From: Candidatus Harrisonbacteria bacterium
Lineage (GTDB): Bacteria > Patescibacteriota > Minisyncoccia > UBA6257 > UBA11618
Length of the DNA: 64,000 nt
NCBI GenBank assembly: GCA_016867415.1
Contig: VGJO01000001.1
Span: 80,052 to 144,051, forward strand
Direction: 5' to 3'
The notes under the pieces are model-generated. The model saw nothing but the letters and a program-made list of their open reading frames with translations. It was not told where the DNA came from and searched no databases. Each line of letters starts with the position of its first letter. The first letter of the stretch is position 1. The translations under genes were made by a program, and so were the position numbers. This document shows, piece after piece, positions 39,609 to 53,465 of this stretch.

Positions 39609-40754
39609 ATGGAATCTTCAGTTAAAAAAATACTAATTGCCTCAGGTATTTTTTCGCCTGAAATTGGAGGTCCCGCTACCTTCTCAAAAATCATTCTCAA
39701 TGAATATCAAAAAAGTGAGAAAATAGATCCAATTGTTCTCTCCTACTTCCTTCCTCATCATGCATCCCAAGATTCGCGTGTTTTTAGTGTTTCCAAATCT
39801 TTGCCAAAAGGCCTTCGCCATCTCATCTATTTTTACAAATGCTTATTTCTCTCTCGAAGGCGAAAACTAGTCCTTGCCCTCGATCCAGTCTCTGCCGGCT
39901 TACCCGCCCTTCTCTCCTCTTTCTTTATGGGAAATAAGTTTCTCGTTCGCATCGCCGGTGACTATGCCTGGGAAGAAGGCTCTCGTCGCTTTGGCGTGAC
40001 AGATACGCTCGATGATTTTCAAAAAAAATCCTATGGCCTTCGAGTCGAGTGGCTCCGCTCCGTCCAGAAATATGTGGCCAAGAAAGCTGAGAAAATAATC
40101 GTTCCCAGTGAGTATCTAAAAAAAATACTAGTGACCGGATGGGGGATAGGGCCGGAAAAAATCATCATAATCTACAACGCTGTTGATTTTCCTGATGCGC
40201 CCGTAGAAAAATCCCTTTCCGTTTCTCCTGCCTTCTCTCTTTTTTCTGCCGGTCGCCTTGTCTCCTGGAAGGGTTTCGACAGCTTATTAGATCTTATGCA
40301 TGAACTCCCCTCGACTATCACACTCGCGATCGCCGGCGATGGGCCGGAAGAACAATCTTTAAGAAAAAAAATAATTGATCTAGATCTTACCTCTCGGATC
40401 ACTCTCCTCGGCCGCCTAGAGAAAAAAGACTTAGTAAATAGATTAAAAGCCGCTGATCTCTTTATTTTGAATACTAAGTATGAAGGCTTTTCTCACCAAA
40501 TTCTCGAGAGTCTTGCCCTCGGCGTCCCGGTAATTACTACAAATATCGGTGGCAATCCCGAGCTTGTAAAAGAGGGTGAAAATGGTTTTCTCGTCGCGCC
40601 CGATGATATGCTTGGCTTTAAAAAAGCTATAGAAAAAATAAGCACTGATAAGTCTCTCTACGCTCACCTTAGCAAGAATGCTTTGCAAGTCCGCCACCTT
40701 TTCTCAAAAAATCGCCTCATTACTGATTTTGAAAATTTGATAAAAAACATATGA
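39609..40754 (+). CDS. glycosyltransferase family 4
   Basis: EGFSHQILESLALGVPVITTNIGGNPELVKEGENGFLV. Confidence 0.8.
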   Translation: MESSVKKILIASGIFSPEIGGPATFSKIILNEYQKSEKIDPIVLSYFLPHHASQDSRVFSVSKSLPKGLRHLIYFYKCLFLSRRRKLVLALDPVSAGLPALLSSFFMGNKFLVRIAGDYAWEEGSRRFGVTDTLDDFQKKSYGLRVEWLRSVQKYVAKKAEKIIVPSEYLKKILVTGWGIGPEKIIIIYNAVDFPDAPVEKSLSVSPAFSLFSAGRLVSWKGFDSLLDLMHELPSTITLAIAGDGPEEQSLRKKIIDLDLTSRITLLGRLEKKDLVNRLKAADLFILNTKYEGFSHQILESLALGVPVITTNIGGNPELVKEGENGFLVAPDDMLGFKKAIEKISTDKSLYAHLSKNALQVRHLFSKNRLITDFENLIKNI

Positions 40755-41890
40755 AAGTTCTAATGATATCAATTGACAAGGGGATTTTAGATCGAAATAC
40801 TCCAGCGGGAAAAAGAATGAAAGAATATTCCGAGCTTTTCGACGAGCTTGTGATTATTGTTTTTGCAAAAAAAGGAAAAGGGAGTGGTTACGAAAATGGC
40901 AGGCTAAAAGTTTTTTCTTCTGATTCTCTTTCTAAAGTTTTTTATTTCTGGGACGCTTGGAAAATAATCCGTCGCCTGCGAATAAATAAAGATTGGGTTA
41001 TCACCTCCCAAGACCCCTACGAGACCGGTCTCTTCGCGCTCCTTGTGAAGTGGTGGTATAAGGTTCCGCTTGAGATGCAGATCCACGTCGATATCTTCTC
41101 TCCGTATTTCAAACATTTGAGTTTTCGCAACCGATTTCGCGCCTGGCTTGCAAAGCAGACCCTTCCGTTTGCTACTCGCGTCCGCGCCGTCGCCTCTCGG
41201 GTCAAGCAATCAATTATCGATCAAAAGCTTCTCCTGCCAGAAAAAATCACCGTCATTCCCGTCCCGACTAATAACGAAGAGATACGAAAAAAATCCTCCG
41301 CCTTTTCCCTCAAAGAAAAATACCCAGGGTTCGCGCATTACTTTCTCATCGTCTCCCGCCTCGCTCCCGAAAAAAACATCCCGCTTGCGATTGAGGCCTT
41401 TGCCGAAGTCATCCAAAAATATCCCGAAGCCTTTCTTCTCATTGTTGGCAAAGGAAGTGAGGAGAATTCTTTAAAAAAGTTAGTTTTTCGCTTGAAATTG
41501 GAAAAAAACATTTGCTTTGAGTCCTGGACCTCTGATCCTTTTTCCTACATGAAGACCGCCGACATTTTCCTTCTCCCTTCCCTCTACGAAGGCTGGGGCC
41601 TCTCTGCCATTGAGTCTCTCGCCTGCGGCCTCCCTATCATTATGACCGACGTCGGCTGTGCTGGTGAGGTAGTGCGAGATGGCAAAAATGGCCTCATTGT
41701 TCCGGTGGCGGACAAAATAGCTCTCCAAAAAGCTATGGAAAAAGTAATAAAAGATTCCTCCCTCCTTTCCTCCCTCAAAGCCGGCACTCATGCCACTGAT
41801 TTTTCTCGTATAGAGAAGCCAGAGATTCTAAAAGCCCTGAAAGAAAATCTGGAGAAAACCGCCGCCTCTTTCCTCTTCCATAAATCATAA
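40751..41890 (+). CDS. glycosyltransferase family 4
   Basis: EGWGLSAIESLACGLPIIMTDVGCAGEVVRDGKNGLIV. 4-nt overlap with the upstream gene (operon). Confidence 0.8.
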   Translation: MKVLMISIDKGILDRNTPAGKRMKEYSELFDELVIIVFAKKGKGSGYENGRLKVFSSDSLSKVFYFWDAWKIIRRLRINKDWVITSQDPYETGLFALLVKWWYKVPLEMQIHVDIFSPYFKHLSFRNRFRAWLAKQTLPFATRVRAVASRVKQSIIDQKLLLPEKITVIPVPTNNEEIRKKSSAFSLKEKYPGFAHYFLIVSRLAPEKNIPLAIEAFAEVIQKYPEAFLLIVGKGSEENSLKKLVFRLKLEKNICFESWTSDPFSYMKTADIFLLPSLYEGWGLSAIESLACGLPIIMTDVGCAGEVVRDGKNGLIVPVADKIALQKAMEKVIKDSSLLSSLKAGTHATDFSRIEKPEILKALKENLEKTAASFLFHKS

Positions 41891-41912
41891 AAAAATTGTA
41901 TAATATGGAGAA

Positions 41913-44021
41913 ATGCGCGTTCTCGTCTTTTCTACCGATGATTTTCTTCCTCCCGCTGGTGGCGCCGAGCTTGCTTTAGGTGAGATTATCCGCCATCTTC
42001 CCGAAGTTCAGTTTGAAGTCATCTCTGCCAAAATCCACCGAGGTCCTCGCCCCACAAATATCCCAAAAAACGTCACTATCCGTCACATTGGCTGGGGATT
42101 TTGGCCTCTCCTCGACAAACTTCTACTCGTTCTTTTAGGGCCCTCTATAGCCTATAAAAGCCATAAGAAAGCCCCTTTTGATCTAGTCTGGTCCATGATG
42201 GCCTCCTATAGTGCTTTTGCTGCCCGAATCTTCAAAAAGAAGGCTAAAACCCCCTATCTTCTCACCCTGCAGGAGGGAGATCCGATTACTCGGCCCCTAT
42301 ACCGCATTTTGAAGCGCTTAGGGCTCTTTGGACCGCTTTTTTCCGATGCCAACGCCCTCCAACCTATCTCTCATTTTCTCTCTCGCTGGGGTCATTTTAT
42401 GGGCTTTAAAGGGCCTGTAGAGGCTATCATTCCCAATGGCGTTGATACTGATCATTTTTCGAGAGAAATCTCCGCCGCCGAGCGGGAGAAGCACCGCTCC
42501 TCTTTTGGTTTTCCTCCTGATGCCCTCATTCTCATTTCCGTCTCCCGCTTTGTCGCCAAAAATGGCCTTGCGGACATCATTCGCGCTCTCCCTCTTCTTC
42601 CCGAAAAAGTTTGTCTTGTTCTCTGCGGTTTTGGTGATCTAGATCAATCACTCCGCGATCTTGTCGCGCGTCTAGATCTTGAGCATCGTGTTCACTTTTT
42701 TGGTTCTTGTTCTCACACTCATCTTCCCGCCGTCCTTTCCGCCACCGATATCTTCATTCGCCCGTCTTTGAGTGAAGGGCTAGGTAATTCTTTTCTCGAA
42801 GCCATGGCCTGCAGCCTGCCAGTAATTGGCACTAAAGTAGGTGGCATCCCGGATTTTCTTGAGGATGGAAAGACTGGTTTTTTTTGTCTTCCCGAAAATC
42901 CCGAAAGCATAAAAGACACAGTACTAAAAATAATAAACTCCAATCCTGCTCGTCTTACCGAAATAAAAAAATCCGCCAAAGATTTGGTTATCAAAAAATA
43001 CAATTGGCGCTTGATAAGCAGTGGGATGAAGAATCTTTTCGAAAAGACGCAAGCGATTACCCCTCTCTGTCTAGAAAAACCTCTCTTCATCCTCTCGCTC
43101 GACGTCGAGCTTGCCTGGGGTATGAAGGGTTCAAAAAGATTTTTCCACCAATACGAAAAAAAGCGGGAAGTAGTCGATAAGCTTCTACAGCTTTTTGAAA
43201 AGTACGACATCCCCGCCACCTGGGCGGTGGTTGGGCATCTCTTTCTTGATAGCTGCGCCCCCGTCTCGGGCGTGAAGCATCCAGAAATTATTCGACCAAA
43301 AAAAGAGGGTACGAATGACTGGTTTGAAATTGATCCCTGTACCTCTATTACCACTCACCCTTTTTGGTATGGCAAAGATATTGTGGGAAAAATCATTAAG
43401 TCAGAAAAGCAAGAGCTCGCCTGCCATACCTTCTCGCATGTATACATGGATTTCCCCTCTCTTACCAAAGACTGGTTTGAAAGTGAATTAGCGGAATGTC
43501 AGCGGCTTGCCAAAGATCATGGCCGATCTCTAACTTCTTTTATCTTTCCGCAAAACAAAATCCGTTTTGTAGATAGTCTCGCCCCCCATGGCTTCACCGC
43601 TTACCGCGCTCCTGATGACAATTGGTATAGTTCTTTAAGAGGACTCCTGAAGCGTATCGCTCATGTGATTGATGATTATTTGTGCTTGCCTGTTCGTTCC
43701 GTCCTCCCTTATAAAGACAATGATCTCATCGCCATCCCCGGCAGTTATTTCTACGTCCATAAAGTCGGCTGGGCGCGTTTTCTCCCCGTCTCCTTTCGAG
43801 TAAAAAAAGCCAAGTGGGGGATAGATGATGCAATAGAGACCGGTAAAATATTTCACCTCTGGACTCACCCTTTTAATCTCACGGATAAAGATGGTAAGCT
43901 CCTTGCCGGTCTCGAAGAAATCCTGCGCTACGTCGCCGAAAAAAGACGACAAGGAAAAATCTCTATTACCTCTATGAACAAAGTTAATAATTTTTTAAAA
44001 AATAATGAAAACTCTAAGTAG
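41913..44021 (+). CDS. bifunctional GT4 glycosyltransferase (N-terminal) / polysaccharide deacetylase, NodB-like (C-terminal) fusion
   Basis: N-terminal half: EGLGNSFLEAMACSLPVIGTKVGGIPDFLEDGKTGF. C-terminal half: LDVELAWG, ATWAVVGHLF, CHTFSH His motif of NodB-type deacetylases. Confidence 0.7.
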   Translation: MRVLVFSTDDFLPPAGGAELALGEIIRHLPEVQFEVISAKIHRGPRPTNIPKNVTIRHIGWGFWPLLDKLLLVLLGPSIAYKSHKKAPFDLVWSMMASYSAFAARIFKKKAKTPYLLTLQEGDPITRPLYRILKRLGLFGPLFSDANALQPISHFLSRWGHFMGFKGPVEAIIPNGVDTDHFSREISAAEREKHRSSFGFPPDALILISVSRFVAKNGLADIIRALPLLPEKVCLVLCGFGDLDQSLRDLVARLDLEHRVHFFGSCSHTHLPAVLSATDIFIRPSLSEGLGNSFLEAMACSLPVIGTKVGGIPDFLEDGKTGFFCLPENPESIKDTVLKIINSNPARLTEIKKSAKDLVIKKYNWRLISSGMKNLFEKTQAITPLCLEKPLFILSLDVELAWGMKGSKRFFHQYEKKREVVDKLLQLFEKYDIPATWAVVGHLFLDSCAPVSGVKHPEIIRPKKEGTNDWFEIDPCTSITTHPFWYGKDIVGKIIKSEKQELACHTFSHVYMDFPSLTKDWFESELAECQRLAKDHGRSLTSFIFPQNKIRFVDSLAPHGFTAYRAPDDNWYSSLRGLLKRIAHVIDDYLCLPVRSVLPYKDNDLIAIPGSYFYVHKVGWARFLPVSFRVKKAKWGIDDAIETGKIFHLWTHPFNLTDKDGKLLAGLEEILRYVAEKRRQGKISITSMNKVNNFLKNNENSK

Positions 44022-44025
44022 TGCA

Positions 44026-44148
44026 AAGCGAAGTAATTTTGGATGGAGTTTGCGATTTCTTTTCGAGGACAAGCCCGGAGCATACTGGGCTCAAGTATGT
44101 GAGGACTTACCGGAGAAAAAAATCGCAAAATTCGCCAAAAGTACGAGC
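44026..44148 (+). repeat. canonical copy of dispersed structured intergenic repeat, ending 11 nt before ATP-grasp gene ATG
   Basis: gcgaagtaattttggatggagtttgcgatttcttttcgaggacaagcccggagcatact gggctca agtatgtgaggacttaccggagaaaaaaatcgcaaaattcgccaaaagtacgagc. Confidence 0.65.
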
Positions 44149-44159
44149 ATAAATAATAT

Positions 44160-45320
44160 ATGACTTGTCTAATTCTCGACGCTCATCTTCATAGCGCTCT
44201 TTCTACCGTTCGATCTTTGGGTAAAAAAAATAGTAAGATTTTTTCTGCTTCTGACACCCGGCTCGCCCCCAGCTTTTTTTCCCGCTACTCAGTAAAAAAT
44301 TTTCTCTACCCTTCTCCTCTCAAAGATGAATCTGCTTTTATAAAAAAAATAACTTCCATTCTAGAAAGTCTTAAGGACGATTGTCTTATATATATTTTCA
44401 GCGAGACTACTCTTTTGCCTCTTTCCCGAAACAGGAATAAACTGCCAAAAAATACCCGTCTTATTCTCGGCTCTCTCGAAAATGTCGAGCTCGCCTCCGA
44501 CAAAGCCGCTACTCTCACTCTTGCGGCAGAAAATAATATCCCCATTCCCCAAACTTTCTTTCCCGGTTCTTTCGCTGAAGCTCAAAACTTTCTCTCCAAA
44601 ATTCCCTACCCCTGCATTGTGAAGCCTCGCCATAACTGCGTCTGGAAAGATGGTGCCTCTGTCTATGAGACCGCCCATCTTGTCGAGACGAAAGAAGAGG
44701 CGGAAAAAATCTGGCGGGAACTTTTTAATGCTTCCGGTGAACCGCCCCTTATTCAAGAAAGAGTAGTTGGTGAAGAGCGAGGAATCTTCACCTTCGCAGT
44801 AAAAGGGGAGGGCTTTGCTTGGTTTGCGCATAAGCGGCTTGAGTCTTTAAAGAAGTTAGGTGGCGCAAGTATCCTCCGAGAAAGCATAGAAGTAGATCCT
44901 AAGCTTAAAAGTTATTCTGAATTACTTATAAAAAAACTTGATTGGACCGGCCCTCTTATGATTGAGTGGAAGTGGGATGAAAATGCTAAGAGGTATCTCC
45001 TCATGGAGATCAATGCCCGTTTCTGGGGTTCTCTGCCGCTTGCTGTTGCCTCAGGGGTAGACTATCCCGCACTCATGCTTGATTTCGCAGTCGGACAATC
45101 GCTTCCTAATGAAGTTACTTATAAGATTAGTATCCGTTCCCGCCATTTCTTTGGCGCTCTAAGAAGTCTCCTTCGAGCAAAGACGTGGAGAGATTTTCAG
45201 AAGCTCTGGCAAATAATGTGGGGGGAAAAAACGATTGATGATGTTTTCTCTTTCTCCGATCCCCTCCCTTTTCTTGGAGAAGTTCTATTTATTGGTAAAA
45301 CATTTATATGGAAAAAATAA
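44160..45320 (+). CDS. ATP-grasp superfamily ligase
   Basis: CIVKPRHNCVWKDGASVY, GEERGIFTFAVKG, LMIEWKWDE..YLLMEINARFWGS. Characteristic ATP-grasp B/C subdomain motifs. Confidence 0.65.
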   Translation: MTCLILDAHLHSALSTVRSLGKKNSKIFSASDTRLAPSFFSRYSVKNFLYPSPLKDESAFIKKITSILESLKDDCLIYIFSETTLLPLSRNRNKLPKNTRLILGSLENVELASDKAATLTLAAENNIPIPQTFFPGSFAEAQNFLSKIPYPCIVKPRHNCVWKDGASVYETAHLVETKEEAEKIWRELFNASGEPPLIQERVVGEERGIFTFAVKGEGFAWFAHKRLESLKKLGGASILRESIEVDPKLKSYSELLIKKLDWTGPLMIEWKWDENAKRYLLMEINARFWGSLPLAVASGVDYPALMLDFAVGQSLPNEVTYKISIRSRHFFGALRSLLRAKTWRDFQKLWQIMWGEKTIDDVFSFSDPLPFLGEVLFIGKTFIWKK

Positions 45321-46096
45321 TTGGCGTCGCTCACATCCACTCCCGCTTTTCCTATGATGGCAAGCTCTCTTTGCCTGAGCTAAAATCACTTTTTCAAAAA
45401 AACAATCTTCGCTTTGCTTTAGTCTCCGAGCACGAAGATGATTTTGATGAGAAAAAATGGATTGCTTTAGTAGAGGAGTGCCAAAAGCTAAGCGATGATA
45501 GTTTTCTTTTCATCCCTGGTCTGGAGATAAACTACGCTGGCGGTCACGTCCTCTGCTTTGGCCTCAATCAGCCAATCTCTTATATGAAAGGGATAGAGAC
45601 TTTAAAAGAAGCAAATAAAGCCGGCGCACTCATTGTGTTTGCGCACCCTCATCGCAGTAGATATAGAGTAGGGGAGGAGCTTCAGCAAATAATAAACGGC
45701 GTTGAAATCTGGAATTCGCACTATGATGGCAAATGGTCGCCTCGATTTCTTTCATATAAACTCTGGCAAAAAGTAAACAGAGAGGATAAAAAAATCTTCG
45801 CCTTTGCCGGCCTCGATTTTCATGATCTTCATCATCTCCACGGGCCACGACTAGAAGTAGCATCTTCTTTTTCGATAGAGGCAATTCTTAAAGCGCTTAT
45901 ATCGGGAAGCTTTGTGATTAAAAAAGATGAAAAAATAATCTCCGCTTTTCCCGATCTTAATATGTTTCCTCTTTTTATAAAAAGTTTCCTCTCTCTTTGC
46001 ATTCTCGGTGGTTATAAATTCGCTGGCAATATATTCTCCTTTTTCCCAAAAAGTTGGAAGAGAAAGATAAAACTATCCTTAAGAAAAAATCTTTAA
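45308..46096 (+). CDS. PHP-family metal-dependent phosphoesterase (CpsB-like)
   Basis: GVAHIHSRFSYDG N-terminal His motif, VSEHED, FAHPHR. Size about 260 aa, as for PHP tyrosine phosphatases. Overlaps the upstream gene by 13 nt. Confidence 0.55.
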   Translation: MEKIIGVAHIHSRFSYDGKLSLPELKSLFQKNNLRFALVSEHEDDFDEKKWIALVEECQKLSDDSFLFIPGLEINYAGGHVLCFGLNQPISYMKGIETLKEANKAGALIVFAHPHRSRYRVGEELQQIINGVEIWNSHYDGKWSPRFLSYKLWQKVNREDKKIFAFAGLDFHDLHHLHGPRLEVASSFSIEAILKALISGSFVIKKDEKIISAFPDLNMFPLFIKSFLSLCILGGYKFAGNIFSFFPKSWKRKIKLSLRKNL

Positions 46097-46100
46097 AAGA

Positions 46101-46958
46101 ATGAATGCAAAACAAAAAAGCGTCCCCTACTTTATAGGCATCGGCGGTCAGCGCTGTGGCACTTCCTGGACCTATGCCTGCCTCTTCGAGCATCCTGAGA
46201 TCTGCGCTCCCGAAAAAGAAATTCACTTCTTCAGCCGTGATCAAAAATTTTCTCAAGGCTACGATTGGTATGAGTCTTTTTTTAAAAACTGTGGTGCTAA
46301 AAAAGCCGGAGAGTTTTCCACTTCCTATATTTCTGATCCTCGTGTCGCCGAGCGTATCGCCGCTCGTTACCCAGAGATAAAAATTATTGCCATCCTAAGA
46401 AACCCCGTCGATCGAGCAGTTTCTAACTATTTCAATGACCTCGCCTCCGGCAAAGTCGAGAAAAGCATCTCCTTCGATGAAGCGCTTCAAAATCACCCAG
46501 AGTACATTGATCAAGGGCTGTACGGAAAGCACCTAGAGCCTTTCTTCAAAGCTTTTTCAAAAAAACAGATCCTTATTCTCCGTTATGAAGATTCGCTAAC
46601 AAACCCCGAGGAGTTTATTCGATCCATCTATCAATTTTTAGAGGTCGATTCTTCATTCAAACCTTCCTATTTGAAAAAGAAGGTAAATGTGAGCCGCGTC
46701 CCGACTTTTGTGGGTCTTGATAACGCTTTCCTAAAAATATCTTCTTTCTTAAGAAAGAGTGGTCTCACCTCCCTCTGGTGGCTTATCAAAAAATCCGGCC
46801 TTCCCAGACTCATCCTTTGGGCAAACACTAGCGAGCAAAGAGGGGAAACGGAATCTCTTCGCCTAAAAAAAGAAACCAAAGAATATCTTCAGTCTATCTT
46901 CGCCTCCGACAAGCAAAAACTCACTTCCCTAACCGGCATAAATTTCCCCAACTGGTAA
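46101..46958 (+). CDS. sulfotransferase-family protein
   Basis: FIGIGGQRCGTSW (5'-PSB-like P-loop of PAPS-dependent sulfotransferases). RNPVDRAVS 3'-PB-like region. Confidence 0.6.
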   Translation: MNAKQKSVPYFIGIGGQRCGTSWTYACLFEHPEICAPEKEIHFFSRDQKFSQGYDWYESFFKNCGAKKAGEFSTSYISDPRVAERIAARYPEIKIIAILRNPVDRAVSNYFNDLASGKVEKSISFDEALQNHPEYIDQGLYGKHLEPFFKAFSKKQILILRYEDSLTNPEEFIRSIYQFLEVDSSFKPSYLKKKVNVSRVPTFVGLDNAFLKISSFLRKSGLTSLWWLIKKSGLPRLILWANTSEQRGETESLRLKKETKEYLQSIFASDKQKLTSLTGINFPNW

Positions 46959-46965
46959 AACGCAT

Positions 46966-46991
46966 TGTCATTCCAGACTCGATCTGGAATC
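46966..46991 (+). repeat. short hairpin repeat (family H2): tgtCATTCCag actcgat ctGGAATC
   Basis: Stem attccaga/tctggaat. Same loop consensus as the other two copies. Confidence 0.5.
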
Positions 46992-47019
46992 TATAAAAAT
47001 ATTTACCTTATTTCTAAAA

Positions 47020-47715
47020 ATGACTCTCACTAATAAAAAAAGGATTCTCTGCTTCCATGACGTGCTTGATTCCGATATCTTCGAGTCTCGCCTTTTGCTT
47101 TGCAAAAAATTAGGCTTCCAGTTTATATCTCTGGCCAAACTTTTAGATAACAAGACTGCCGGTCCCGCTCTCGCCGTTACCTTTGATGACGGCTATCAAT
47201 CTGTGTATCAAAATGCTCTGCCTATTTTACGCAAACTTCACATCCCCGCCACTTTTTTCATAACCAATGATTTTATTGGCCTCAAGGAAGACGCTCTAAA
47301 AAGCTTTTTGAAAAATAATCTTCTCCGCTCTTCCTACCGTGAGCCCATGTCCTGGGAAGAAGTAGGAAAAATCGCTTCTGATCCTCTTTTTGAAATCGGC
47401 GCTCACACCGCCTCCCATCCCCGTTTGAATGATAAGTATCCGAAAGAATTAGCCGAAAAAGAAATAATCGAAGCCGGTGATAATCTCGAAAAAAAGATCA
47501 GTAAAAAAATCCGCTACTTCGCCTTCCCTTTCGGCGACAGTGATAGTGCTGGTAAAGCCGCTCGATCTCTCGTCCGCACTCGCTATGAGGCCGCCTTTTC
47601 TATTATTCCAGGAAAGATTAGCGGAAATGAAACTGATACGTCATTTCTTCCCCGTCACAGCCTCGACCCTGAAAGAAATATTCTAGTTTGGCTTTTTCAT
47701 TTATTATTTTTGTAA
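47020..47715 (+). CDS. polysaccharide deacetylase (NodB homology domain)
   Basis: AVTFDDGYQSV (TFDDG motif), IGAHTASHP (HxxxH). Confidence 0.75.
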   Translation: MTLTNKKRILCFHDVLDSDIFESRLLLCKKLGFQFISLAKLLDNKTAGPALAVTFDDGYQSVYQNALPILRKLHIPATFFITNDFIGLKEDALKSFLKNNLLRSSYREPMSWEEVGKIASDPLFEIGAHTASHPRLNDKYPKELAEKEIIEAGDNLEKKISKKIRYFAFPFGDSDSAGKAARSLVRTRYEAAFSIIPGKISGNETDTSFLPRHSLDPERNILVWLFHLLFL

Positions 47716-47747
47716 AAATATCATAAGTAGGTAATCGTCCTCAGTTC

Positions 47748-47870
47748 CGCGAAGTAATTTTGGATGGAGTTTGCGATTTCTTTTCGAGGACAAGCCCGGA
47801 GCATACTAAAGGAAGTATGTGAGGACTTACCGGAGAAAAAAATCGCAAAATCCGCCAAAAGTACGAGCGC
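47748..47870 (+). repeat. canonical copy of dispersed structured intergenic repeat in a convergent intergenic region
   Basis: Near-identical to 44026-44148 except the central loop (aaagga vs gggctca) and 2 substitutions. Confidence 0.65.
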
Positions 47871-48929
47871 CTAAGAAAAATTAAACATTACTTCATAAAT
47901 CGCTTCCGCAAGATGCTCCACACTATGCTCTCTCACAACAAGCTCCCTGAAATACTTTCTCATCTCTTCTTTTTCTATTTCCTTTAAAGAAAGAAGTGTG
48001 TCTATAGCTTTTCCAACTTGATCGGCCTTCTCGTTATTTTTTATAAAAAGATACCCCTGCCATTTCTTAGGGATAAGAGGAAGGAACGAAGGGTTAGAAG
48101 TGAGTACGAGGCATCCCGCCGCCATCGCTTCTAAGACACTTTTATCAAAAGATCCTTTCGGAGTGAAATTAAAAAGAATCTCCGCTTTCTGAAAATAAAA
48201 AGGAATAGCATTATAAGGTTTTGCCCCCAGAAAAAGCACCTCTTTTTCATTATTTCCTACAGATATCTTTTCTTTAAGGGATGATAAATACTTTCTATCT
48301 GTCTCACTCTTCGCTTCCCCAATTATCTGAAGCAATTCTGTTGCGTGCGATGCGTAGTAGCCCGTGATAATATTTTCTATTTTTTTCACATGAGTGATTC
48401 TGCCTAAAAAAAGAAGCGTGTCCCGTTTCTTTTCTGAGGGAGAGGAAAAAAGTTCAGTCTGAATCCCGTGTCCTACCGGGTATATTGGGGCTGATTGAAG
48501 TTGAAAAGTTTCTCGGGTGGAAGTAAACACTCCTTGGAGAAAAAAAGTAGAAAATCGCAAAAGAAGTCCTGGTTTGTAGCATGAAGTCTTCCAAAGGAAG
48601 ACCGGCTTATGGGTAAGTCGGAAAAACCAACCACCCAAAGCCGCATAGATTTCATTCATATGGACAAAGATCGCGTCATAATTCTTTCTTTCTTGAATGA
48701 TGAGTTGAAAGAAGCGAAAAAAAGCCTGTAATTTAGAAAAAAGTCCTCGTTCTCCCGACTTTCGGAGAGAAAAAAGCCGGACATTGATAGGGAGTGTTTC
48801 AGAAGAAGGAAAAAGACTAATGACTGTTATTTGGGAAAACTGCTTGCTAAAAGCCTGGACCAGGTAATAGGTATAGCCCAAGACATCATCATCTTTGTCG
48901 ATTTTTTGCGTAAAAAAGAGTATTCTCAT
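47871..48929 (-). CDS. glycosyltransferase (GT-B fold, GT4-like)
   Basis: N-terminal MRILFFTQK Rossmann start. FDKSVLEAMAAGCLVLTSN motif. Confidence 0.6.
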   Translation of the reverse strand: MRILFFTQKIDKDDDVLGYTYYLVQAFSKQFSQITVISLFPSSETLPINVRLFSLRKSGERGLFSKLQAFFRFFQLIIQERKNYDAIFVHMNEIYAALGGWFFRLTHKPVFLWKTSCYKPGLLLRFSTFFLQGVFTSTRETFQLQSAPIYPVGHGIQTELFSSPSEKKRDTLLFLGRITHVKKIENIITGYYASHATELLQIIGEAKSETDRKYLSSLKEKISVGNNEKEVLFLGAKPYNAIPFYFQKAEILFNFTPKGSFDKSVLEAMAAGCLVLTSNPSFLPLIPKKWQGYLFIKNNEKADQVGKAIDTLLSLKEIEKEEMRKYFRELVVREHSVEHLAEAIYEVMFNFS

Positions 48930-48937
48930 AGCATTCT

Positions 48938-50770
48938 ATGTGCGCTATAAACGGCATTACCTGTAAAGATCAAAGACTGGTAGAGCAGATGAATGCGTGT
49001 CTCGCTCACCGCGGCCCTGATGGTACCGGTATTTTTGTGGACCCGATAATCACCCTGGGCCATAACCGCCTTTCTATTATTGATCTTACGAGTAATGCTT
49101 CTCAGCCTATGGTCTCCGCCTCCGGAGAAACAGTGATTTCTTTTAATGGCGAGATTTATAACTTCCGAGAGCTAAGAGAACTCTACTGCAAAAAGCAATC
49201 TTTTAAAAGCGCGAGCGACACTGAAGTAATAGTAAATCTTTATGAAATCCTGGGAGAAAAAGCCTTCTCTCTTTTGAATGGTATCTTTGCCTTCGCTCTC
49301 TTTGATAAAAAAAAGAAAAAACTTTTTCTTGTCCGTGACTCTTCAGGAGTAAAGCCTCTTTATTACTCTTGCTTGGGGGATGATGTGATCTTTTCCTCAG
49401 AAATAAAAGCCATTCTTGAAAATAAAGAAGTTCCCCGAAGGCTCAATCATGAGGCAACGGAATTTTATTTCCGCCTGGGGTTTGTCTCCGAAGAAGAAAC
49501 GCTTTTTAAAGATATTAGGAAAGTCAAAGCCGGCCATTATCTCGAGTATGACCTTGCAAAAAAAGTTTTCTCAATAAAAAAGTTTGCTGAATTTGCGATC
49601 AAAAAAGAAACCGGCAAAAAATCCGCCCCCGAGCTTGAGTCTTTAGTTCGAAACGCGGTGACACGACAGCTCGTCGCTGATGTGCCTGTCGGCGTCTATC
49701 TTTCCGGCGGTATTGATTCCAGTATTATTTTAGATGCAGTGGCGCGTACGATGACGAGTCCCAAGACCTACACCATTCGCTACGCTCTGGATAAAGACGA
49801 AGAGCCGGCAAAGTTCAATATCGACGCGGACGTGGCTTTGAGGACGAGTCGTCATTATGGCACCGATCATCATGAGCTTGTCATCTCCTCCGAAGATGTG
49901 TTGGCTAATTTTGAAGCCGCTATTTCTCACGCAGATGAGCCCATCGCTCATCCCACCTCTGTTCCCATGTTTCTTCTCTCTAAAGAAGCCAAAAAGACCG
50001 TGACCGTGATTCTGACCGGCGATGGGGGAGACGAATTATTTGGTGGCTATGAACGCTATCGTACTCTGCGTAAAATCCTTTTATATCAGAAGCTTATCCC
50101 TGAAAATCTTCGGAGTATTTTAACAAAAATACACCCCGCTCTTTCTAAGGTGAAGAGTGGTAAACCTTTAGATATCTTCGGTCTTCTTTGGTTTTCTAAG
50201 TCTCCGCTTGAAAAGATTGTAAAAAGTGAATTTCTTGATAATAAACTGATAAGAAGTATTTACTCTCCTTATCTTGCTGATAAGAGTGATCTCCATCTTA
50301 TTGAGCGCTTCATGATAGCGGAAAAAAATACTTGGCTCATCGATTTTCACCTCAATCTCGCTGACAAAATGGCTATGGCGCATGGCGTGGAAAATCGCGT
50401 GCCTTTCCTCGACAAAGAGGTGATAGAATTCGCCGAGCGTCTTCCTCTCTCGCAAAAAGTTTCTTTCTTTGATCGGAAAATCCTTTTAAAGCGGGCTTTT
50501 CGTCACTCTCTTCCCGAAGAGCTTTTTCACCTCCCTAAGCGCGGTTGGATCTCTCCCGGCGCCAAATGGCTCCGCCACCCCCGCTTCATTGGCTTTGCTA
50601 AAGAAATTTTATCTCCTTCCTATCATTCCAGCACCGCCGATCTTTTTTACTGGCCTGAGATTGAACGCATCCTAAGAAGTCATATAGAAAAAAAAGAGTA
50701 CAATCTCAATCTCATCTGGCAACTCCTCACTTTCCAAGTCTGGGCCAAGAGCTTCCACATCACTTTATAA
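48938..50770 (+). CDS. asnB: asparagine synthetase (glutamine-hydrolysing) family amidotransferase
   Basis: MCAINGI (Cys2 nucleophile), YLSGGIDSS PP-loop. Confidence 0.85.
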   Translation: MCAINGITCKDQRLVEQMNACLAHRGPDGTGIFVDPIITLGHNRLSIIDLTSNASQPMVSASGETVISFNGEIYNFRELRELYCKKQSFKSASDTEVIVNLYEILGEKAFSLLNGIFAFALFDKKKKKLFLVRDSSGVKPLYYSCLGDDVIFSSEIKAILENKEVPRRLNHEATEFYFRLGFVSEEETLFKDIRKVKAGHYLEYDLAKKVFSIKKFAEFAIKKETGKKSAPELESLVRNAVTRQLVADVPVGVYLSGGIDSSIILDAVARTMTSPKTYTIRYALDKDEEPAKFNIDADVALRTSRHYGTDHHELVISSEDVLANFEAAISHADEPIAHPTSVPMFLLSKEAKKTVTVILTGDGGDELFGGYERYRTLRKILLYQKLIPENLRSILTKIHPALSKVKSGKPLDIFGLLWFSKSPLEKIVKSEFLDNKLIRSIYSPYLADKSDLHLIERFMIAEKNTWLIDFHLNLADKMAMAHGVENRVPFLDKEVIEFAERLPLSQKVSFFDRKILLKRAFRHSLPEELFHLPKRGWISPGAKWLRHPRFIGFAKEILSPSYHSSTADLFYWPEIERILRSHIEKKEYNLNLIWQLLTFQVWAKSFHITL

Positions 50771-50775
50771 AAGTA

Positions 50776-50806
50776 TTGTCATTCCGGACCCCGAGCCGGA
50801 ATCCAG
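50776..50806 (+). repeat. short hairpin repeat (family H2): ttgtCATTCCgg accccga gccGGAATCCag
   Basis: Stem cattccgg/ccggaatc. Third copy. Confidence 0.5.
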
Positions 50807-50822
50807 TACATTATGTAAACTT

Positions 50823-51764
50823 ATGACCCTCTCTCTCATCCTCCCTATCTACAACGAAGAAAAAAATCTCCCCTCATTATTTGAGCGTATAGAAAAAGTG
50901 ATGAGTGACGGCAGGTATGATTACGAAGTCATTGCTATAGATGATGGCTCAAAAGATAGTAGCCTGCAGTTTCTAAAAAAAGTGGCTGGAGAAAACCTTC
51001 GTTGGAAGTTAATCAGCTTTTATAAGAATTATGGTCAGACCGCCGCCCTCCAAGGAGGGATAGAGCACGCGAGCGGCGACATCATCATCCCTCTCGATAG
51101 TGATCTTGAAAATCATCCCGAAGATATTCCCCTCCTTCTTCAAAAAATGAGGGAGGGTTATGATCTAGTTTCCGGTTGGCGCCTGGATCGCTGGCGGGAA
51201 AATCCTCTTTCTCGCCGCCTACCCTCGCTCATCGCTAACAAAATTATTTCTTTTGTCACCGGTATTTCTCTCCATGACTATGGCTGCACGCTCAAAGCGT
51301 ATAAAAGAGAAGTTATCGTCGATCTTCCTCTCTACGGAGAAATGCATAGATTTCTTCCTGCTTATGCCGCCCGGCGCGGCGCAAAAATCACCGAAATTCC
51401 CGTACGCTACAGCCCCCGCGCTTCTGGCAAGAGTAATTACGGGCTCTCCCGCACCTTCCGCGTCCTCCTCGATCTCCTCGTCATCCACTTTCTCGATCGC
51501 TACCTTGACCGCCCCATTCATTTTTTCGGGGGCGGGGGATTGTTGTTTATCTTTGGAAGTCTCCTCTCGGGCCTCTACGCGATTTACTTGAAAGCATTTG
51601 CGGGCACGAGCCTTATCCGCACCCCGCTTCCTATCCTAAGTGCCTTCTTGTTTCTCTCTGGCTTTAACTTTATCCTTATGGGACTTATCTCCGAGCTCCT
51701 TATCCGCACCCATACCCCACTCTCCCCAAAAAACTCAAAAATAAAAGAGAAAGTTAATTTCTAA
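50823..51764 (+). CDS. GT2 glycosyltransferase, polyprenol-phosphate sugar synthase type (DPM1/ArnC/GtrB-like) with C-terminal TM helices
   Basis: ILPIYNEEKNL, AIDDGSKDSS, DSDLENHPEDIP (DxD). Two C-terminal TM segments. Confidence 0.8.
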   Translation: MTLSLILPIYNEEKNLPSLFERIEKVMSDGRYDYEVIAIDDGSKDSSLQFLKKVAGENLRWKLISFYKNYGQTAALQGGIEHASGDIIIPLDSDLENHPEDIPLLLQKMREGYDLVSGWRLDRWRENPLSRRLPSLIANKIISFVTGISLHDYGCTLKAYKREVIVDLPLYGEMHRFLPAYAARRGAKITEIPVRYSPRASGKSNYGLSRTFRVLLDLLVIHFLDRYLDRPIHFFGGGGLLFIFGSLLSGLYAIYLKAFAGTSLIRTPLPILSAFLFLSGFNFILMGLISELLIRTHTPLSPKNSKIKEKVNF

Positions 51765-51829
51765 GATTCGGGATTGAGAAAATCTTTGCCAAATACCCAA
51801 TTATCATTAAAATATTCAAAATCTCTGAA

Positions 51830-52651
51830 ATGTTTAATAAAGACTTATTTCTTTTGCAAAAAGTTACAAACACAGACGTCATTCATACGCCTTTTCCTTA
51901 TTTTGTAATAAAAAATGCATTACCCGAAAATATTGTTTCTGAACTCGTAAAAAAATTTCCTTCAACTGGAAAAATAACCAAAGGACAGAGGTACGGGAGT
52001 AATGAACGTTTTGATTATACGATAACTGATGCTGCTTCTGATTCAAGCCTCGATTCTCTATGGATAGATTTCTTAGATACGAATAGTTCAGATGTTTTTT
52101 ATGAAAAAATATTTGAGTTATTCGATAAAGATATTGCTCAGCTGTATCCCGAATTAAGTTTCCGAAAAAATAATAATTATTTAAAAAAAGGAATTCGTTA
52201 TCAAGATCCGCTTTGGGAAGACTCTATTAATTTTGATTGCCATATCTCAATAAATACCCCAGTAACAGAAAAACCTACCTCGGTAAGAAAAGTGCATGTT
52301 GATGATCCTAAAAAACTTTTCGGAGGTCTTTGGTATTTGAGAGATGATGACGATCAAAGCACGGGAGGTGATCTGGAGCTCTACGAATACATAAGAACTC
52401 CTAAAATGTTTGGGCAGCAAGTCTATGAAAACAGAGTGAAAAAAATAAAGACCGTGCCATACGAGAAAAATCTTCTTATTATATTTTTGAATTCTTTTAA
52501 TTCTCTGCACGGAGTCACTATAAGGGGAAAAACAGAAAAAACAAGAAAATTTGTAAACGTGGTGGCCGAATTAAAAAATTCTCTTTTTGATATAAATAGT
52601 TTTCAAGAAAATTTTATAGAAAGAAAAATAAGGCAAATGATAAGCAGTTAA
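51830..52651 (+). CDS. hypothetical protein, possibly 2OG/Fe(II) oxygenase-like
   Basis: HVDD (HxD) and a downstream LHGV..R. Otherwise no clear motif. Confidence 0.35.
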   Translation: MFNKDLFLLQKVTNTDVIHTPFPYFVIKNALPENIVSELVKKFPSTGKITKGQRYGSNERFDYTITDAASDSSLDSLWIDFLDTNSSDVFYEKIFELFDKDIAQLYPELSFRKNNNYLKKGIRYQDPLWEDSINFDCHISINTPVTEKPTSVRKVHVDDPKKLFGGLWYLRDDDDQSTGGDLELYEYIRTPKMFGQQVYENRVKKIKTVPYEKNLLIIFLNSFNSLHGVTIRGKTEKTRKFVNVVAELKNSLFDINSFQENFIERKIRQMISS

Positions 52652-52672
52652 TAAAATAAAGATTAGCTTGAT

Positions 52673-53458: not shown

Positions 53459-53465
53459 TCTCTCG

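What the first reader, a model, noticed from the sequence alone, without database searches (positions are those of the whole stretch)
46101..46958. PAPS-type sulfotransferase in a bacterial glycan locus
The protein has a clear sulfotransferase 5'-PSB-like P-loop (IGIGGQRCGTSW) and a 3'-PB-like region, and sits between the PHP phosphoesterase and a polysaccharide deacetylase. Sulfated glycans are uncommon in bacteria. It would also require a PAPS supply (CysC/CysN/CysD), which I do not see in this window.
Basis: partly seen in the sequence, partly recalled or inferred. Interest (0 to 1): 0.5.

Follow-up and report, generated by a model that had tools for sequence, protein, structure and literature searches.

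The report
Glycan sulfotransferase in a CPR bacterium
The gene encodes a genuine PAPS-type carbohydrate sulfotransferase, already auto-annotated as such, inside the surface-glycan gene cluster of a tiny CPR bacterium (Candidatus Harrisonbacteria); it belongs to a conserved four-gene module with a sugar deacetylase, and where this organism gets its PAPS is still unknown.

Summary
ORF 46101-46958 (+, 285 aa) carries IGIGGQRCGTSW and sits between a PHP phosphoesterase and a CE4 deacetylase. The nearest solved sequences and folds are a bacterial sulfotransferase (3RNL), heparan-sulfate 3-O-sulfotransferases and the NDST1 N-sulfotransferase domain. PAPS-binding and catalytic positions are invariant in 45 relatives; the canonical Lys is Arg here, a normal variant (K 24 / R 21).

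The organism is a Candidatus Harrisonbacteria MAG, and NCBI already names the protein a sulfotransferase. New here is the context. Close relatives keep a GT4 + sulfotransferase + CE4 (+ AsnB) module: CE4 lies within 5.5 kb in 17/19 loci. The sulfotransferase is sometimes fused to GT4. Five non-redundant related loci carry PAPS-synthesis genes, including a Sat-CysC fusion inside a glycan cluster containing GT4-sulfotransferase-CE4.

No PAPS genes occur in the window or 6.5 kb beyond it; the rest of the genome could not be searched. The PHP neighbour belongs to a separate ATP-grasp/PHP sub-module. Verdict: a new member of a known kind, moderately interesting. The open possibility is NDST-like N-sulfation.

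The parts
46101..46958 (+). Sulfotransferase gene (285 aa; NCBI MBM3281239.1)
   Evidence: ORF. Pfam Sulfotransfer_1 82.6 bits and Sulfotransfer_3 62.5 bits. PDB phmmer: 3rnl 1e-20, 3-OST-1 2e-17, NDST1 7e-13. AF2 pLDDT 93.6. Foldseek TMq 0.65-0.70 to 3RNL, 3-OSTs and NDST1.
46134..46169 (+). 5'-phosphosulfate-binding loop IGIGGQRCGTSW (G13, G15, R18, G20, T21, S22, W23)
   Evidence: G13, G15, G20 and W23 are invariant in 45 relatives. Position 18 is K in 24 and R in 21. It aligns with GVRKGGT of 3-OST-1 and GAAKCGT of 3RNL.
46311..46313 (+). Codon of Glu71, the putative catalytic base
   Evidence: Invariant in 45/45. It aligns with the Glu of VEKTPAYF in 3-OST-1. That this Glu is the catalytic base of 3-OST-1 is prior knowledge, not tested here.
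46392..46430 (+). 3'-phosphate-binding region ILRNPVDRAVSNY (R100, P102, R105, S108)
   Evidence: R100, P102, R105 and S108 are invariant in 45/45. The region aligns with LRDPSERVLSDY of 3-OST-1.
47020..47715 (+). CE4 polysaccharide deacetylase, the conserved downstream partner
   Evidence: Polysacc_deac_1 84.9 bits. Nearest named and solved relatives are PgaB/IcaB-type PNAG N-deacetylases. In close relatives it is directly downstream on the same strand in 20/36 loci and within 5.5 kb in 17/19. TFDD is present in 29/32 adjacent partners. No hydrophobic segment.
47871..48929 (-). GT4 glycosyltransferase, orthologue of the GT4 that directly precedes the sulfotransferase in relatives
   Evidence: Glycos_transf_1. 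It is the only window hit of the L020/L022 upstream GT4s, at E 2e-41 and 4e-34.
48938..50770 (+). AsnB-type glutamine amidotransferase, a frequent fourth member of the module
   Evidence: Asn_synthase 273 bits plus GATase_7. An AsnB gene lies within 8 kb downstream in 9/19 close relatives, usually directly after CE4.
45308..46096 (+). PHP-family metal phosphoesterase, 4 nt upstream of the sulfotransferase, specific function unknown
   Evidence: Invariant H11, E41, H42, E73, H113, D170, H172, with H9 and H80 nearly so. 7 of 8 orthologues hit PF02811. AF2 pLDDT 85.5. Foldseek: TM0559 E 1e-11, RNase AM PHP domain 6e-7. In relatives it follows the ATP-grasp gene, not the sulfotransferase.
44160..45320 (+). 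ATP-grasp ligase, overlapping the PHP start by 13 nt; conserved partner of PHP
   Evidence: ATPgrasp_Ter 35.8 bits. The ATP-grasp then PHP pair recurs in L020, L022, L065, L066, L068, L071, L073, L108 and L109.
41913..44021 (+). GT4 fused to a CE4-like domain (702 aa)
   Evidence: Glycos_transf_1 125 bits plus Polysacc_deac_1 27.8 bits. It is the best window match of the GT4 domain that is fused to the sulfotransferase in L028/L031.
36093..64000 (.). Wzx/Wzy-type glycan assembly cluster that contains the module and runs about 5.4 kb past the window end
   Evidence: GT4s, Wzy_C, Wzx (Polysacc_synt), GT2, methyltransferases, a second AsnB, SIS-CBS and an epimerase. Beyond the window: PhyH, CTP_transf_3, a methyltransferase, a second flippase and Bac_transf, then DsbA and glutaredoxin genes.

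Best explanation
The gene encodes a cytoplasmic, PAPS-dependent carbohydrate sulfotransferase of the heparan-sulfate-sulfotransferase-like branch of the Sulfotransfer_1 family. It most likely works on a hexosamine-containing, lipid-linked oligosaccharide while the Wzx/Wzy-type cluster of this Candidatus Harrisonbacteria bacterium assembles it. It acts together with a partner GT4 glycosyltransferase and a CE4 de-N-acetylase, before the unit is flipped outward. Arg18 (Lys in half of the family), Glu71 and the R100/S108 3'-phosphate site would bind PAPS and catalyse in-line sulfuryl transfer, releasing pAp. Shown here: family membership, fold, residue conservation, the conserved gene module, GT4 fusions, and PAPS-gene linkage in relatives. 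Inferred: the acceptor sugar, the position sulfated (N or O), activity in this organism, and the PAPS source.
For: Pfam Sulfotransfer_1 82.6 bits against a cut-off of 22. Best solved sequences are 3RNL, 3-OST-1/3/5 and NDST1-NST. AF2 pLDDT is 93.6, with Foldseek TMq 0.65-0.70 and E 1e-14 to 1e-11 to the same set; TPST and cytosolic SULTs match much more weakly. G13, G15, G20, W23, E71, R100, P102, R105 and S108 are invariant in 45 relatives, and position 18 is K24/R21. Human TPST2 uses Arg78/Glu99/Lys158 as catalytic residues, so an Arg in this role has precedent (PMC10951654). Domain fusions with GT4 occur in L028, L031, L034, P0039, P0154, P0155, P0171 and P0153. The module is conserved: CE4 is directly downstream in 20/36 close relatives and within 5.5 kb in 17/19, against 0/16 and 0/10 in more distant relatives, and the GT4 orthologue is identified. 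PAPS genes are linked to relatives: APS kinase in L023/L024; a Sat-CysC fusion in L029 within the Bac_transf and Wzx operon of the same cluster; sat, cysC and a sulfotransferase in a row in L095; CysN-CysC in L017; a CysC fragment in L086. None of the module proteins has a hydrophobic or signal segment. CPR genomes with sat/cysC/cysN have been reported (PMC7906910).
Against: No PAPS-synthesis gene lies in the 64 kb window or in the 6.5 kb beyond its right end, and the rest of the genome could not be searched. The window protein departs from near-invariant family residues at A16G and R239L (R in 41/45). The acceptor is inferred from context only. There is no biochemical data for any member of this subfamily; the best PDB match, 3RNL, is deposited only as 'Sulfotransferase' and is, to my knowledge, uncharacterised. 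CE4 adjacency was scored with phmmer probes from this subfamily, so divergent CE4 genes near distant relatives may have been missed.
Confidence: 0.75

Rival explanations
1. Split NDST-like system. The CE4 enzyme de-N-acetylates a GlcNAc (or other HexNAc) residue, and the sulfotransferase then N-sulfates the free amine. This would give an N-sulfo-hexosamine in a bacterial surface glycan and would be a functional analogue of animal N-deacetylase/N-sulfotransferase. It is a specific sub-case of the best explanation.
For: The sulfotransferase-to-CE4 gene coupling is tight and subfamily-specific, with overlapping stop and start codons in L022, L029 and L108. The CE4 is nearest to GlcNAc-polymer N-deacetylases PgaB/IcaB. 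The NDST1 N-sulfotransferase domain is among the top sequence and fold matches. Predominantly N-sulfated exopolymers of unknown enzymology were reported in Pontiella (PMC7356697).
Against: 3-O-sulfotransferases match as well as or better than NDST. No sulfotransferase-CE4 two-domain fusion was found among about 100 loci or the top 150 representatives. NDST's deacetylase domain clusters closer to CE18 than to CE4 (PMC13353177), so any parallel is by analogy. In Nod-factor synthesis (prior knowledge) a CE4 enzyme and a sulfotransferase act at different sites.
Confidence: 0.22
2. The gene is intact but idle or decaying in this organism, because a reduced CPR genome cannot make PAPS. The module would be a horizontally acquired remnant.
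For: No PAPS genes lie in or beside the cluster. The protein deviates from family consensus at A16G and R239L. The cluster is compositionally mosaic, with GC 0.33-0.36 after about 52 kb against 0.42-0.46 before.
Against: The ORF is full length with every catalytic and PAPS-binding residue intact. The identical protein recurs on contigs from at least five independent samples. It sits in a tight operon, 4 nt after the PHP gene. Sat/cysC/cysN are documented in CPR genomes.
Confidence: 0.1
3. The acceptor is not a glycan but a lipid, a small metabolite or a protein tyrosine, and the location in the glycan cluster is incidental.
For: The Sulfotransfer_1 and Sulfotransfer_3 families include small-molecule, lipid and peptide sulfotransferases. 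TPSTs and cytosolic SULTs appear as weak fold matches.
Against: Fusions to GT4 recur in both orientations. The position inside glycan clusters is conserved across about 50 close relatives. The best structural matches are all polysaccharide sulfotransferases.
Confidence: 0.06
4. The adjacent PHP phosphoesterase is the pAp (3'-phosphoadenosine 5'-phosphate) phosphatase that removes the inhibitory by-product of the sulfotransferase, making the pair a functional unit.
For: pAp inhibits sulfotransferases, and the PHP-type enzyme Cv1693 hydrolyses pAp (PMC8268124). RNase AM shares Cv1693's active site (PMC9410882), and RNase AM and BAD_1165 are second-tier fold matches. The gap to the sulfotransferase is 4 nt. 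PHP lies in the same cluster as the sulfotransferase in 7/13 relatives with enough upstream flank.
Against: The best fold and sequence match is the uncharacterised TM0559, and matches to the RNase AM/Cv1693 group are weak: TM about 0.42, and profile E = 0.22. In relatives PHP is never directly adjacent to the sulfotransferase (0/13) but always follows an ATP-grasp gene. L109 has the ATP-grasp-PHP pair with no sulfotransferase within 10 kb. Many loci with 20 kb of sequence have the sulfotransferase without PHP.
Confidence: 0.12

Closest known systems
Heparan sulfate glucosamine 3-O-sulfotransferases (3-OST-1/3/5; PDB 1zrh, 3uan, 1t8t, 3bd9)
   Same: Same fold (Foldseek TMq 0.65-0.70, E about 1e-12). 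The 5'-PSB loop, the Glu at the catalytic-base position and the 3'-PB RxxxxRxxS align. The acceptor is a glucosamine-containing polysaccharide.
   Different: Only 20-22 % identity. The animal enzymes are Golgi enzymes (prior knowledge), while this protein is soluble with no signal or TM segment. Arg replaces the 5'-PSB Lys. Substrate-binding residues were not compared, and the acceptor here is unknown.
NDST1 N-deacetylase/N-sulfotransferase (PDB 1nst, 8ccy)
   Same: The sulfotransferase domain is a top sequence and fold match. The logic of a sugar N-deacetylase coupled to a sulfotransferase is mirrored by the conserved sulfotransferase-CE4 gene pair.
   Different: Two separate genes, and no two-domain fusion was found. 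The deacetylase is CE4, whereas NDST's deacetylase domain clusters closer to CE18 (PMC13353177). N-sulfation is not demonstrated.
Sulfotransferase from Alicyclobacillus acidocaldarius (PDB 3RNL)
   Same: Best sequence match (E 1.2e-20) and best fold match (E 1.2e-14, TMt 0.79). It is bacterial and soluble.
   Different: 24 % identity. The entry is deposited only as 'Sulfotransferase' and I know of no functional study, so it says nothing about the acceptor. It has Lys at the 5'-PSB position.
Rhizobial Nod-factor tailoring (NodB CE4 deacetylase, NodH sulfotransferase, NodPQ PAPS synthesis); comparison from prior knowledge
   Same: A bacterial pathway that combines a cytoplasmic CE4 de-N-acetylase, a PAPS-dependent sugar sulfotransferase and dedicated ATP-sulfurylase/APS-kinase genes, as seen in related locus L029.
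   Different: Nod factors are short lipo-chitooligosaccharides, not Wzx/Wzy-built glycans. Similarity to NodH was not tested here. NodB scored only E 7e-6 against the CE4.
Synechan (xss) sulfated exopolysaccharide cluster of Synechocystis (PMC8205485) and the putative sulfated-GAG cluster of Pontiella (PMC7356697)
   Same: Sulfotransferase genes embedded in bacterial polysaccharide clusters with GT4/GT2 enzymes, methyltransferases and flippases.
   Different: Different phyla. No sequence comparison was made here. The GT4-sulfotransferase-CE4-AsnB module is not described in the passages of those papers that I read.

Membership tests
PAPS-dependent sulfotransferases (Pfam PF00685 Sulfotransfer_1 / PF13469 Sulfotransfer_3) | Whole-protein HMM score above the curated gathering threshold | tested here: met
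   82.6 bits against 22 (PF00685) and 62.5 bits against 27 (PF13469).
PAPS-dependent sulfotransferases (Pfam PF00685 Sulfotransfer_1 / PF13469 Sulfotransfer_3) | 5'-phosphosulfate-binding strand-loop-helix (GxxGT[ST]) with a basic catalytic residue | tested here: met
   GIGGQRCGTSW. G13, G15, G20 and W23 are invariant and T21/S22 are present in 44/45. The basic residue is R18, and the family splits K 24 / R 21. Arg in a catalytic role has precedent in TPST2.
PAPS-dependent sulfotransferases (Pfam PF00685 Sulfotransfer_1 / PF13469 Sulfotransfer_3) | 3'-phosphate-binding motif (conserved Arg and Ser after a beta-strand) | tested here: met
   R100, R105 and S108 are invariant in 45/45 and align with the 3-OST-1 motif.
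PAPS-dependent sulfotransferases (Pfam PF00685 Sulfotransfer_1 / PF13469 Sulfotransfer_3) | Sulfotransferase alpha/beta fold | tested here: met
   AF2 pLDDT 93.6. The top 50 listed Foldseek PDB hits (of 98 at E<=1e-3) are all sulfotransferase-fold entries, including retinol dehydratase 1x8l.
PAPS-dependent sulfotransferases (Pfam PF00685 Sulfotransfer_1 / PF13469 Sulfotransfer_3) | Binds PAPS and transfers sulfate to an acceptor | not testable with these tools
   This needs biochemistry. Indirect support: relatives are linked to Sat/CysC genes.
PAPS-dependent sulfotransferases (Pfam PF00685 Sulfotransfer_1 / PF13469 Sulfotransfer_3) | A PAPS supply (ATP sulfurylase plus APS kinase) in the same organism | tested here: inconclusive
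   Absent from the 64 kb window and from 6.5 kb beyond it.
Heparan-sulfate-type glucosamine sulfotransferases (3-OST / NDST-NST) | Catalytic Glu after the second beta-strand (Glu in VEKTPAYF of 3-OST-1) | tested here: met
   E71 aligns with it and is invariant.
Heparan-sulfate-type glucosamine sulfotransferases (3-OST / NDST-NST) | Acts on GlcN/GlcNAc residues of a heparosan-type polymer | not testable with these tools
   There are only contextual hints: a conserved CE4 partner of PgaB/IcaB type.
Bifunctional N-deacetylase/N-sulfotransferase (NDST) | Deacetylase and sulfotransferase domains in one polypeptide | tested here: not met
   They are separate genes with a 61-nt gap in the window. No two-domain fusion was found in about 100 loci or among the top 150 representatives; the only hint is a weak DUF2334 hit in the four-domain protein P0153.
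Bifunctional N-deacetylase/N-sulfotransferase (NDST) | Deacetylase domain homologous to NDST's | tested here: not met
   The partner is CE4 (Polysacc_deac_1). NDST deacetylase domains cluster closer to CE18 than to CE4 (PMC13353177).
PHP-family pAp phosphatase / RNase AM group (Cv1693, TrpH), considered for neighbour 45308-46096 | Specific sequence or fold similarity to Cv1693 / RNase AM beyond the shared PHP barrel | tested here: inconclusive
   PHP metal ligands are conserved. The best match is the uncharacterised TM0559. RNase AM and BAD_1165 reach only TM about 0.42 and profile E = 0.22. The insertion domain that binds the nucleotide 5'-phosphate in RNase AM was not examined.

The most novel reading that the evidence does not exclude
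The conserved, often translationally coupled sulfotransferase-CE4 pair is a bacterial, split functional analogue of animal NDST. CE4 exposes a hexosamine amine on the lipid-linked repeat and the sulfotransferase N-sulfates it. Ultra-small CPR episymbionts and many other uncultured bacteria would then display heparan-like N-sulfated surface glycans. This would also explain why CPR genomes carry sat/cysC/cysN, because the genes would supply PAPS for glycan sulfation and not for sulfate reduction.
Probability: 0.2. Interest if true: 0.75.

Novelty: new member of a known kind. Interest (0 to 1): 0.4.

Why it matters
CPR/Patescibacteria are thought to live attached to host cells, yet the chemistry of their surfaces is essentially unknown. 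A sulfated surface glycan would be strongly anionic and is a plausible determinant of attachment or of phage and host recognition.

The work also defines a widespread, uncharacterised module of GT4 + heparan-sulfate-like sulfotransferase + CE4 deacetylase + AsnB, whose sulfotransferase family has 867 clusters at E<=1e-30. This gives concrete candidate enzymes for the sulfated, partly N-sulfated glycosaminoglycan-like polymers reported from bacteria and sludge granules, for which no prokaryotic sulfotransferase is known (PMC7356697). Soluble bacterial enzymes of this type would also interest groups working on chemo-enzymatic heparin synthesis, where expressing NDST in bacteria is a bottleneck (PMC13353177).

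Finally, it suggests a testable reinterpretation of the sat/cysC/cysN genes seen in CPR genomes (PMC7906910).

Tried and rejected
(1) The genome-contig scan with the single protein found only 23-34 % identical relatives. The window's own genome is not among the species representatives, so its other contigs could not be reached.

(2) The look-up of encoding contigs returned only short contigs (at most 10.4 kb) for window proteins, although a 227,960-bp contig exists. Walking along the genome to look for cysC/sat was therefore impossible.

(3) A look-up of ten NCBI-sourced relatives for organism names returned none, so the taxonomic spread of the close subfamily rests on few names: Harrisonbacteria, Nealsonbacteria and one Gammaproteobacteria MAG; its PHP neighbour's homologue P0144 is named Patescibacteria group.

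(4) The idea that the PHP neighbour is the pAp phosphatase serving the sulfotransferase was tested by sequence profile, Pfam, structure and gene context. It found little support, because PHP travels with the ATP-grasp gene.

(5) I looked for a Rosetta-stone sulfotransferase-CE4 fusion. There was none as a two-domain protein; the fusions are with GT4. One 1150-aa protein, P0153, carries a weak deacetylase-like DUF2334 hit (26.2 bits against a cut-off of 26) together with methyltransferase, GT4 and sulfotransferase domains.

(6) Literature searches for CPR/Patescibacteria plus sulfotransferase found nothing relevant.

(7) I worried that Arg18 in place of the canonical Lys marks an inactive protein. 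I rejected this because K and R alternate 24/21 in the family.

(8) I ran no further search on an APS-kinase query. Only the best 120 hits are listed, with no taxon filter, so it could not answer whether this MAG has one.
Full report
OBSERVATION. The ORF listing finds an ATG-initiated ORF at exactly 46101-46958 on the + strand, 285 aa. The ORF starts 4 nt after the stop codon of the upstream gene 45308-46096. That gene in turn overlaps the ATP-grasp gene 44160-45320 by 13 nt. The downstream gene 47020-47715 begins after a 61-nt gap.

WHAT THE PROTEIN IS. Pfam assigns it to Sulfotransfer_1 (82.6 bits, cut-off 22, E 3.8e-23) and Sulfotransfer_3 (62.5 bits). No NCBIfam model matches. Among solved structures, the best sequence matches are a bacterial sulfotransferase from Alicyclobacillus (3RNL, 1.2e-20), heparan sulfate 3-O-sulfotransferases 1, 5 and 3 (2e-17 to 6e-14), and the N-sulfotransferase domain of NDST1 (7e-13). 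Cytosolic SULTs match only around the 3'-PB region.

An AlphaFold2 model built on 45 family members is confident (pLDDT 93.6, pTM 0.89). Foldseek against the PDB returns the same set first, at E 1e-14 to 1e-11 and TMq 0.65-0.70. TPSTs, polyketide sulfotransferase domains and cytosolic SULTs fall far behind.

In an alignment of 45 relatives at 42-52 % identity, several groups of residues are invariant:
- G13, G15, G20 and W23 of the 5'-PSB loop.
- E71, which aligns with the Glu of VEKTPAYF in 3-OST-1. From prior knowledge this is the catalytic base.
- R100, P102, R105 and S108 of the 3'-PB motif.

The canonical 5'-PSB lysine (GVRKGGT in 3-OST-1, GAAKCGT in 3RNL) is Arg18 in this protein. Within the family the position is K in 24 and R in 21 sequences, so this is a normal variant. 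Human TPST2 likewise uses Arg78 with Glu99 and Lys158 as catalytic residues (PMC10951654). The window protein does deviate from near-invariant family residues at A16G and R239L; the consequence is unknown.

ORGANISM AND PRIOR ANNOTATION. Exact look-ups place the window proteins in a MAG of Candidatus Harrisonbacteria (CPR/Patescibacteria), on a contig of 227,960 bp. NCBI already calls the target 'sulfotransferase domain-containing protein' (MBM3281239.1). The neighbours FJY91_00590 and FJY91_00595 are 'hypothetical'. The identical protein occurs on contigs from one JGI and several SRA metagenome samples. The left two-thirds of the window is housekeeping: aminoacyl-tRNA synthetases, RNase J, RNase Y, iPGM, FtsK, ClpB, signal peptidase and tRNAs.

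THE LOCUS. A glycan-assembly cluster begins at about 36.1 kb and contains the following:
- GT4, a 726-aa Wzy_C protein, then GT4 and GT4.
- A GT4 fused to a CE4-like domain.
- ATP-grasp, PHP, the sulfotransferase and CE4.
- GT4 on the minus strand, then AsnB, GT2, a weak 2OG-oxygenase hit and a methyltransferase.
- A Wzx flippase, a KpsF-like SIS-CBS protein, a second AsnB, an epimerase/dehydratase, GT4 and a methyltransferase.

A Logan contig that overlaps the right end shows that the cluster continues with PhyH, a CTP_transf_3 cytidylyltransferase, a methyltransferase, a second flippase and a Bac_transf initiating transferase. It then ends at DsbA-like and glutaredoxin genes.

None of the sulfotransferase, CE4, partner GT4, AsnB, ATP-grasp or PHP proteins has a hydrophobic or signal segment in a Kyte-Doolittle scan. 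The tailoring is therefore predicted to happen in the cytoplasm, where PAPS would be available, before flipping.

COMPARATIVE CONTEXT. The family is large. Among 50 %-identity cluster representatives there are 867 at E<=1e-30, 18,509 at E<=1e-10 and 35,080 at E<=1e-3.

I assembled about 100 related loci, reduced them to 89 non-redundant ones, and searched their ORFs with probes from the window and a Pfam-verified APS kinase. Among the 50 close relatives (phmmer E<=1e-60):
- A CE4 gene lies directly downstream on the same strand in 20 of 36 loci with at least 1 kb of downstream sequence.
- A CE4 gene lies within 5.5 kb in 17 of 19 loci.
- An AsnB gene follows in 9 of 19 loci.

In more distant relatives the CE4 count is 0/16 and 0/10. 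In L022, L029 and L108 the CE4 start overlaps the sulfotransferase stop.

The gene immediately upstream of the sulfotransferase in L020 and L022 is a GT4. Its only match in the window is the GT4 at 47871-48929 on the minus strand (E 2e-41). The conserved module is therefore GT4 + sulfotransferase + CE4 (+ AsnB), with the GT4 inverted in the window.

The sulfotransferase domain is fused to a GT4 domain in L028, L031, L034, P0039, P0154, P0155 and P0171. In P0153 it is fused to deacetylase-like DUF2334, methyltransferase and GT4 domains. No simple sulfotransferase-CE4 fusion was seen. The fusions and the synteny tie the enzyme to a sugar acceptor made by a GT4.

The CE4 partner has the TFDD and HxxxH motifs. 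Its nearest named and solved relatives are the poly-beta-1,6-GlcNAc N-deacetylases PgaB and IcaB, which favours de-N-acetylation of a HexNAc residue.

PAPS. All window ORFs of at least 150 aa were scanned with Pfam. All stop-to-stop ORFs of at least 60 aa were searched with an APS-kinase probe and ATP-sulfurylase motifs. Neither search found a PAPS-synthesis gene. The cluster's continuation beyond the window has none either.

At the family level the link to PAPS is strong. Five non-redundant related loci carry Pfam-verified PAPS-synthesis genes:
- L023/L024 (a 50 %-identical relative) have an APS kinase at the cluster edge.
- L095 has ATP sulfurylase, APS kinase and a sulfotransferase in a row.
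- L017 has a CysN-CysC fusion.
- L086 has an APS-kinase fragment.
- L029 is the clearest case. A 50 %-identical relative sits in a GT4-sulfotransferase-CE4 arrangement in a cluster where a PUA-ATP-sulfurylase-APS-kinase fusion lies between the Bac_transf gene and the Wzx flippase gene.

He et al. [quoted passage not shown]

THE PHP NEIGHBOUR. On its own the protein has no significant Pfam hit. However, 7 of 8 orthologues match PF02811, and the PHP metal ligands are invariant or nearly so: H9, H11, E41/H42, E73, H80, H113, D170 and H172. Its model (pLDDT 85.5) matches the uncharacterised PHP protein TM0559 best (E 1e-11, TM about 0.6). RNase AM and BAD_1165 form a weaker second tier (E 6e-7 to 2e-5, TM about 0.42).

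The idea that it removes pAp was worth testing, because pAp inhibits sulfotransferases and the PHP-type Cv1693 hydrolyses pAp (PMC8268124; PMC9410882). Gene context argues against a dedicated link:
- In relatives the PHP gene always follows the ATP-grasp gene, usually next to a 332-338-aa CE4-like gene on the opposite strand.
- It lies 6-9 kb from the sulfotransferase and is directly adjacent in 0 of 13 loci.
- One locus (L109) has the trio with no sulfotransferase within 10 kb.

The window has simply compacted two sub-modules into one operon. By analogy from memory, untested here, an ATP-grasp amidoligase paired with a phosphatase resembles the enzymes that decorate capsular glucuronic acid with amino-alcohol phosphates in Campylobacter.

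MECHANISM PROPOSED. Bac_transf starts a lipid-linked repeat unit and the GT4s extend it. The partner GT4 adds a HexNAc residue, and CE4 removes its N-acetyl group. The sulfotransferase then transfers sulfate from PAPS and releases pAp: Arg18 and the 5'-PSB loop hold the phosphosulfate, R100 and S108 hold the 3'-phosphate, and Glu71 acts as base. AsnB and the methyltransferases add further tailoring, Wzx flips the unit, and the Wzy_C protein polymerises or ligates it.

Shown here are the family, fold, conserved residues, module, fusions and PAPS linkage in relatives. Inferred are the acceptor, the order of the steps, N- versus O-sulfation, and activity and PAPS source in this organism.

COMPARISON WITH WHAT IS KNOWN AND NOVELTY. 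The protein is a member of a known, curated family and is already auto-annotated as such, so it is a new member of a known kind. The conserved GT4-sulfotransferase-CE4-AsnB module and its presence in CPR bacteria do appear to be undescribed. Full-text searches for CPR/Patescibacteria with sulfotransferase returned nothing relevant.

The literature shows why the module could matter:
- Sulfated bacterial polysaccharides are regarded as rare (synechan, PMC8205485).
- NDST's deacetylase domain is closer to CE18 than to CE4 (PMC13353177), so an N-deacetylase/N-sulfotransferase reading of the pair would be convergence, not homology.

I put the NDST-like N-sulfation reading at about 0.2.

VERDICT. 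It is ordinary as a family assignment and moderately interesting for its context. The PAPS source in this reduced genome and the chemistry of the product remain open. Interest 0.4.

Noticed in passing
window 32427-35864 (+): A 1145-aa ORF with no Pfam hit sits directly upstream of the glycan cluster. It has an N-terminal signal-peptide-like segment, is rich in S/A/T/V/G and carries a TPTPTPTP linker. It looks like a secreted surface or S-layer-type protein and could be the glycan's protein acceptor.
   Followed up: partly
window 29164-31035 (-): A 623-aa ORF with about 10 hydrophobic segments and no Pfam hit. It may be a polytopic membrane glycosyltransferase or transporter next to the cluster.
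   Followed up: partly
window ~52000-64000: GC content drops from 0.42-0.46 to 0.33-0.36 inside the glycan cluster. This suggests a mosaic origin, with the right half horizontally exchanged or hypervariable.
   Followed up: no
window 41913-44021 (+): A GT4 glycosyltransferase is fused to a CE4-like deacetylase domain (702 aa). In relatives a separate 332-338-aa CE4-like gene lies beside the ATP-grasp-PHP pair on the opposite strand (L020, L022, L108, L109).
   Followed up: partly
window 44160-46096 (+); L020, L022, L065, L066, L068, L071, L073, L108, L109: A conserved ATP-grasp then PHP phosphoesterase gene pair of unknown function recurs in these glycan clusters. L109 has it without a nearby sulfotransferase. 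Only 11 PHP homologues were found in the 5.8-billion-protein index.
   Followed up: partly
window 55611-56573 (+) and L025 4805-5542: A KpsF-like SIS+CBS sugar-phosphate isomerase lies in the window, and a CTP_transf_3 cytidylyltransferase lies just beyond it. Together they hint at a Kdo-like or ulosonic acid sugar in the glycan of a CPR bacterium. No KdsA-like gene was recognised.
   Followed up: no
window 48938-50770 and 57968-59824 (+): Two AsnB-type glutamine amidotransferase paralogues lie in one cluster. The first is part of the conserved sulfotransferase module in relatives.
   Followed up: partly
L029 16516-20788 (-): Bac_transf, a PUA-ATP-sulfurylase-APS-kinase fusion and a Wzx flippase form one apparent operon inside a glycan cluster. 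PAPS synthesis is built into polysaccharide assembly there.
   Followed up: yes
L095 ~1300-9118: Four sulfotransferase genes, a CE4 gene and a sat-cysC pair lie within about 8 kb. This looks like a heavily sulfating glycan locus.
   Followed up: partly
L022 16131-19900: The related cluster on a 1.08-Mb contig ends with VTC, DUF4956 and a CotH/beta-helix protein, followed by an rve-family integrase/transposase.
   Followed up: no
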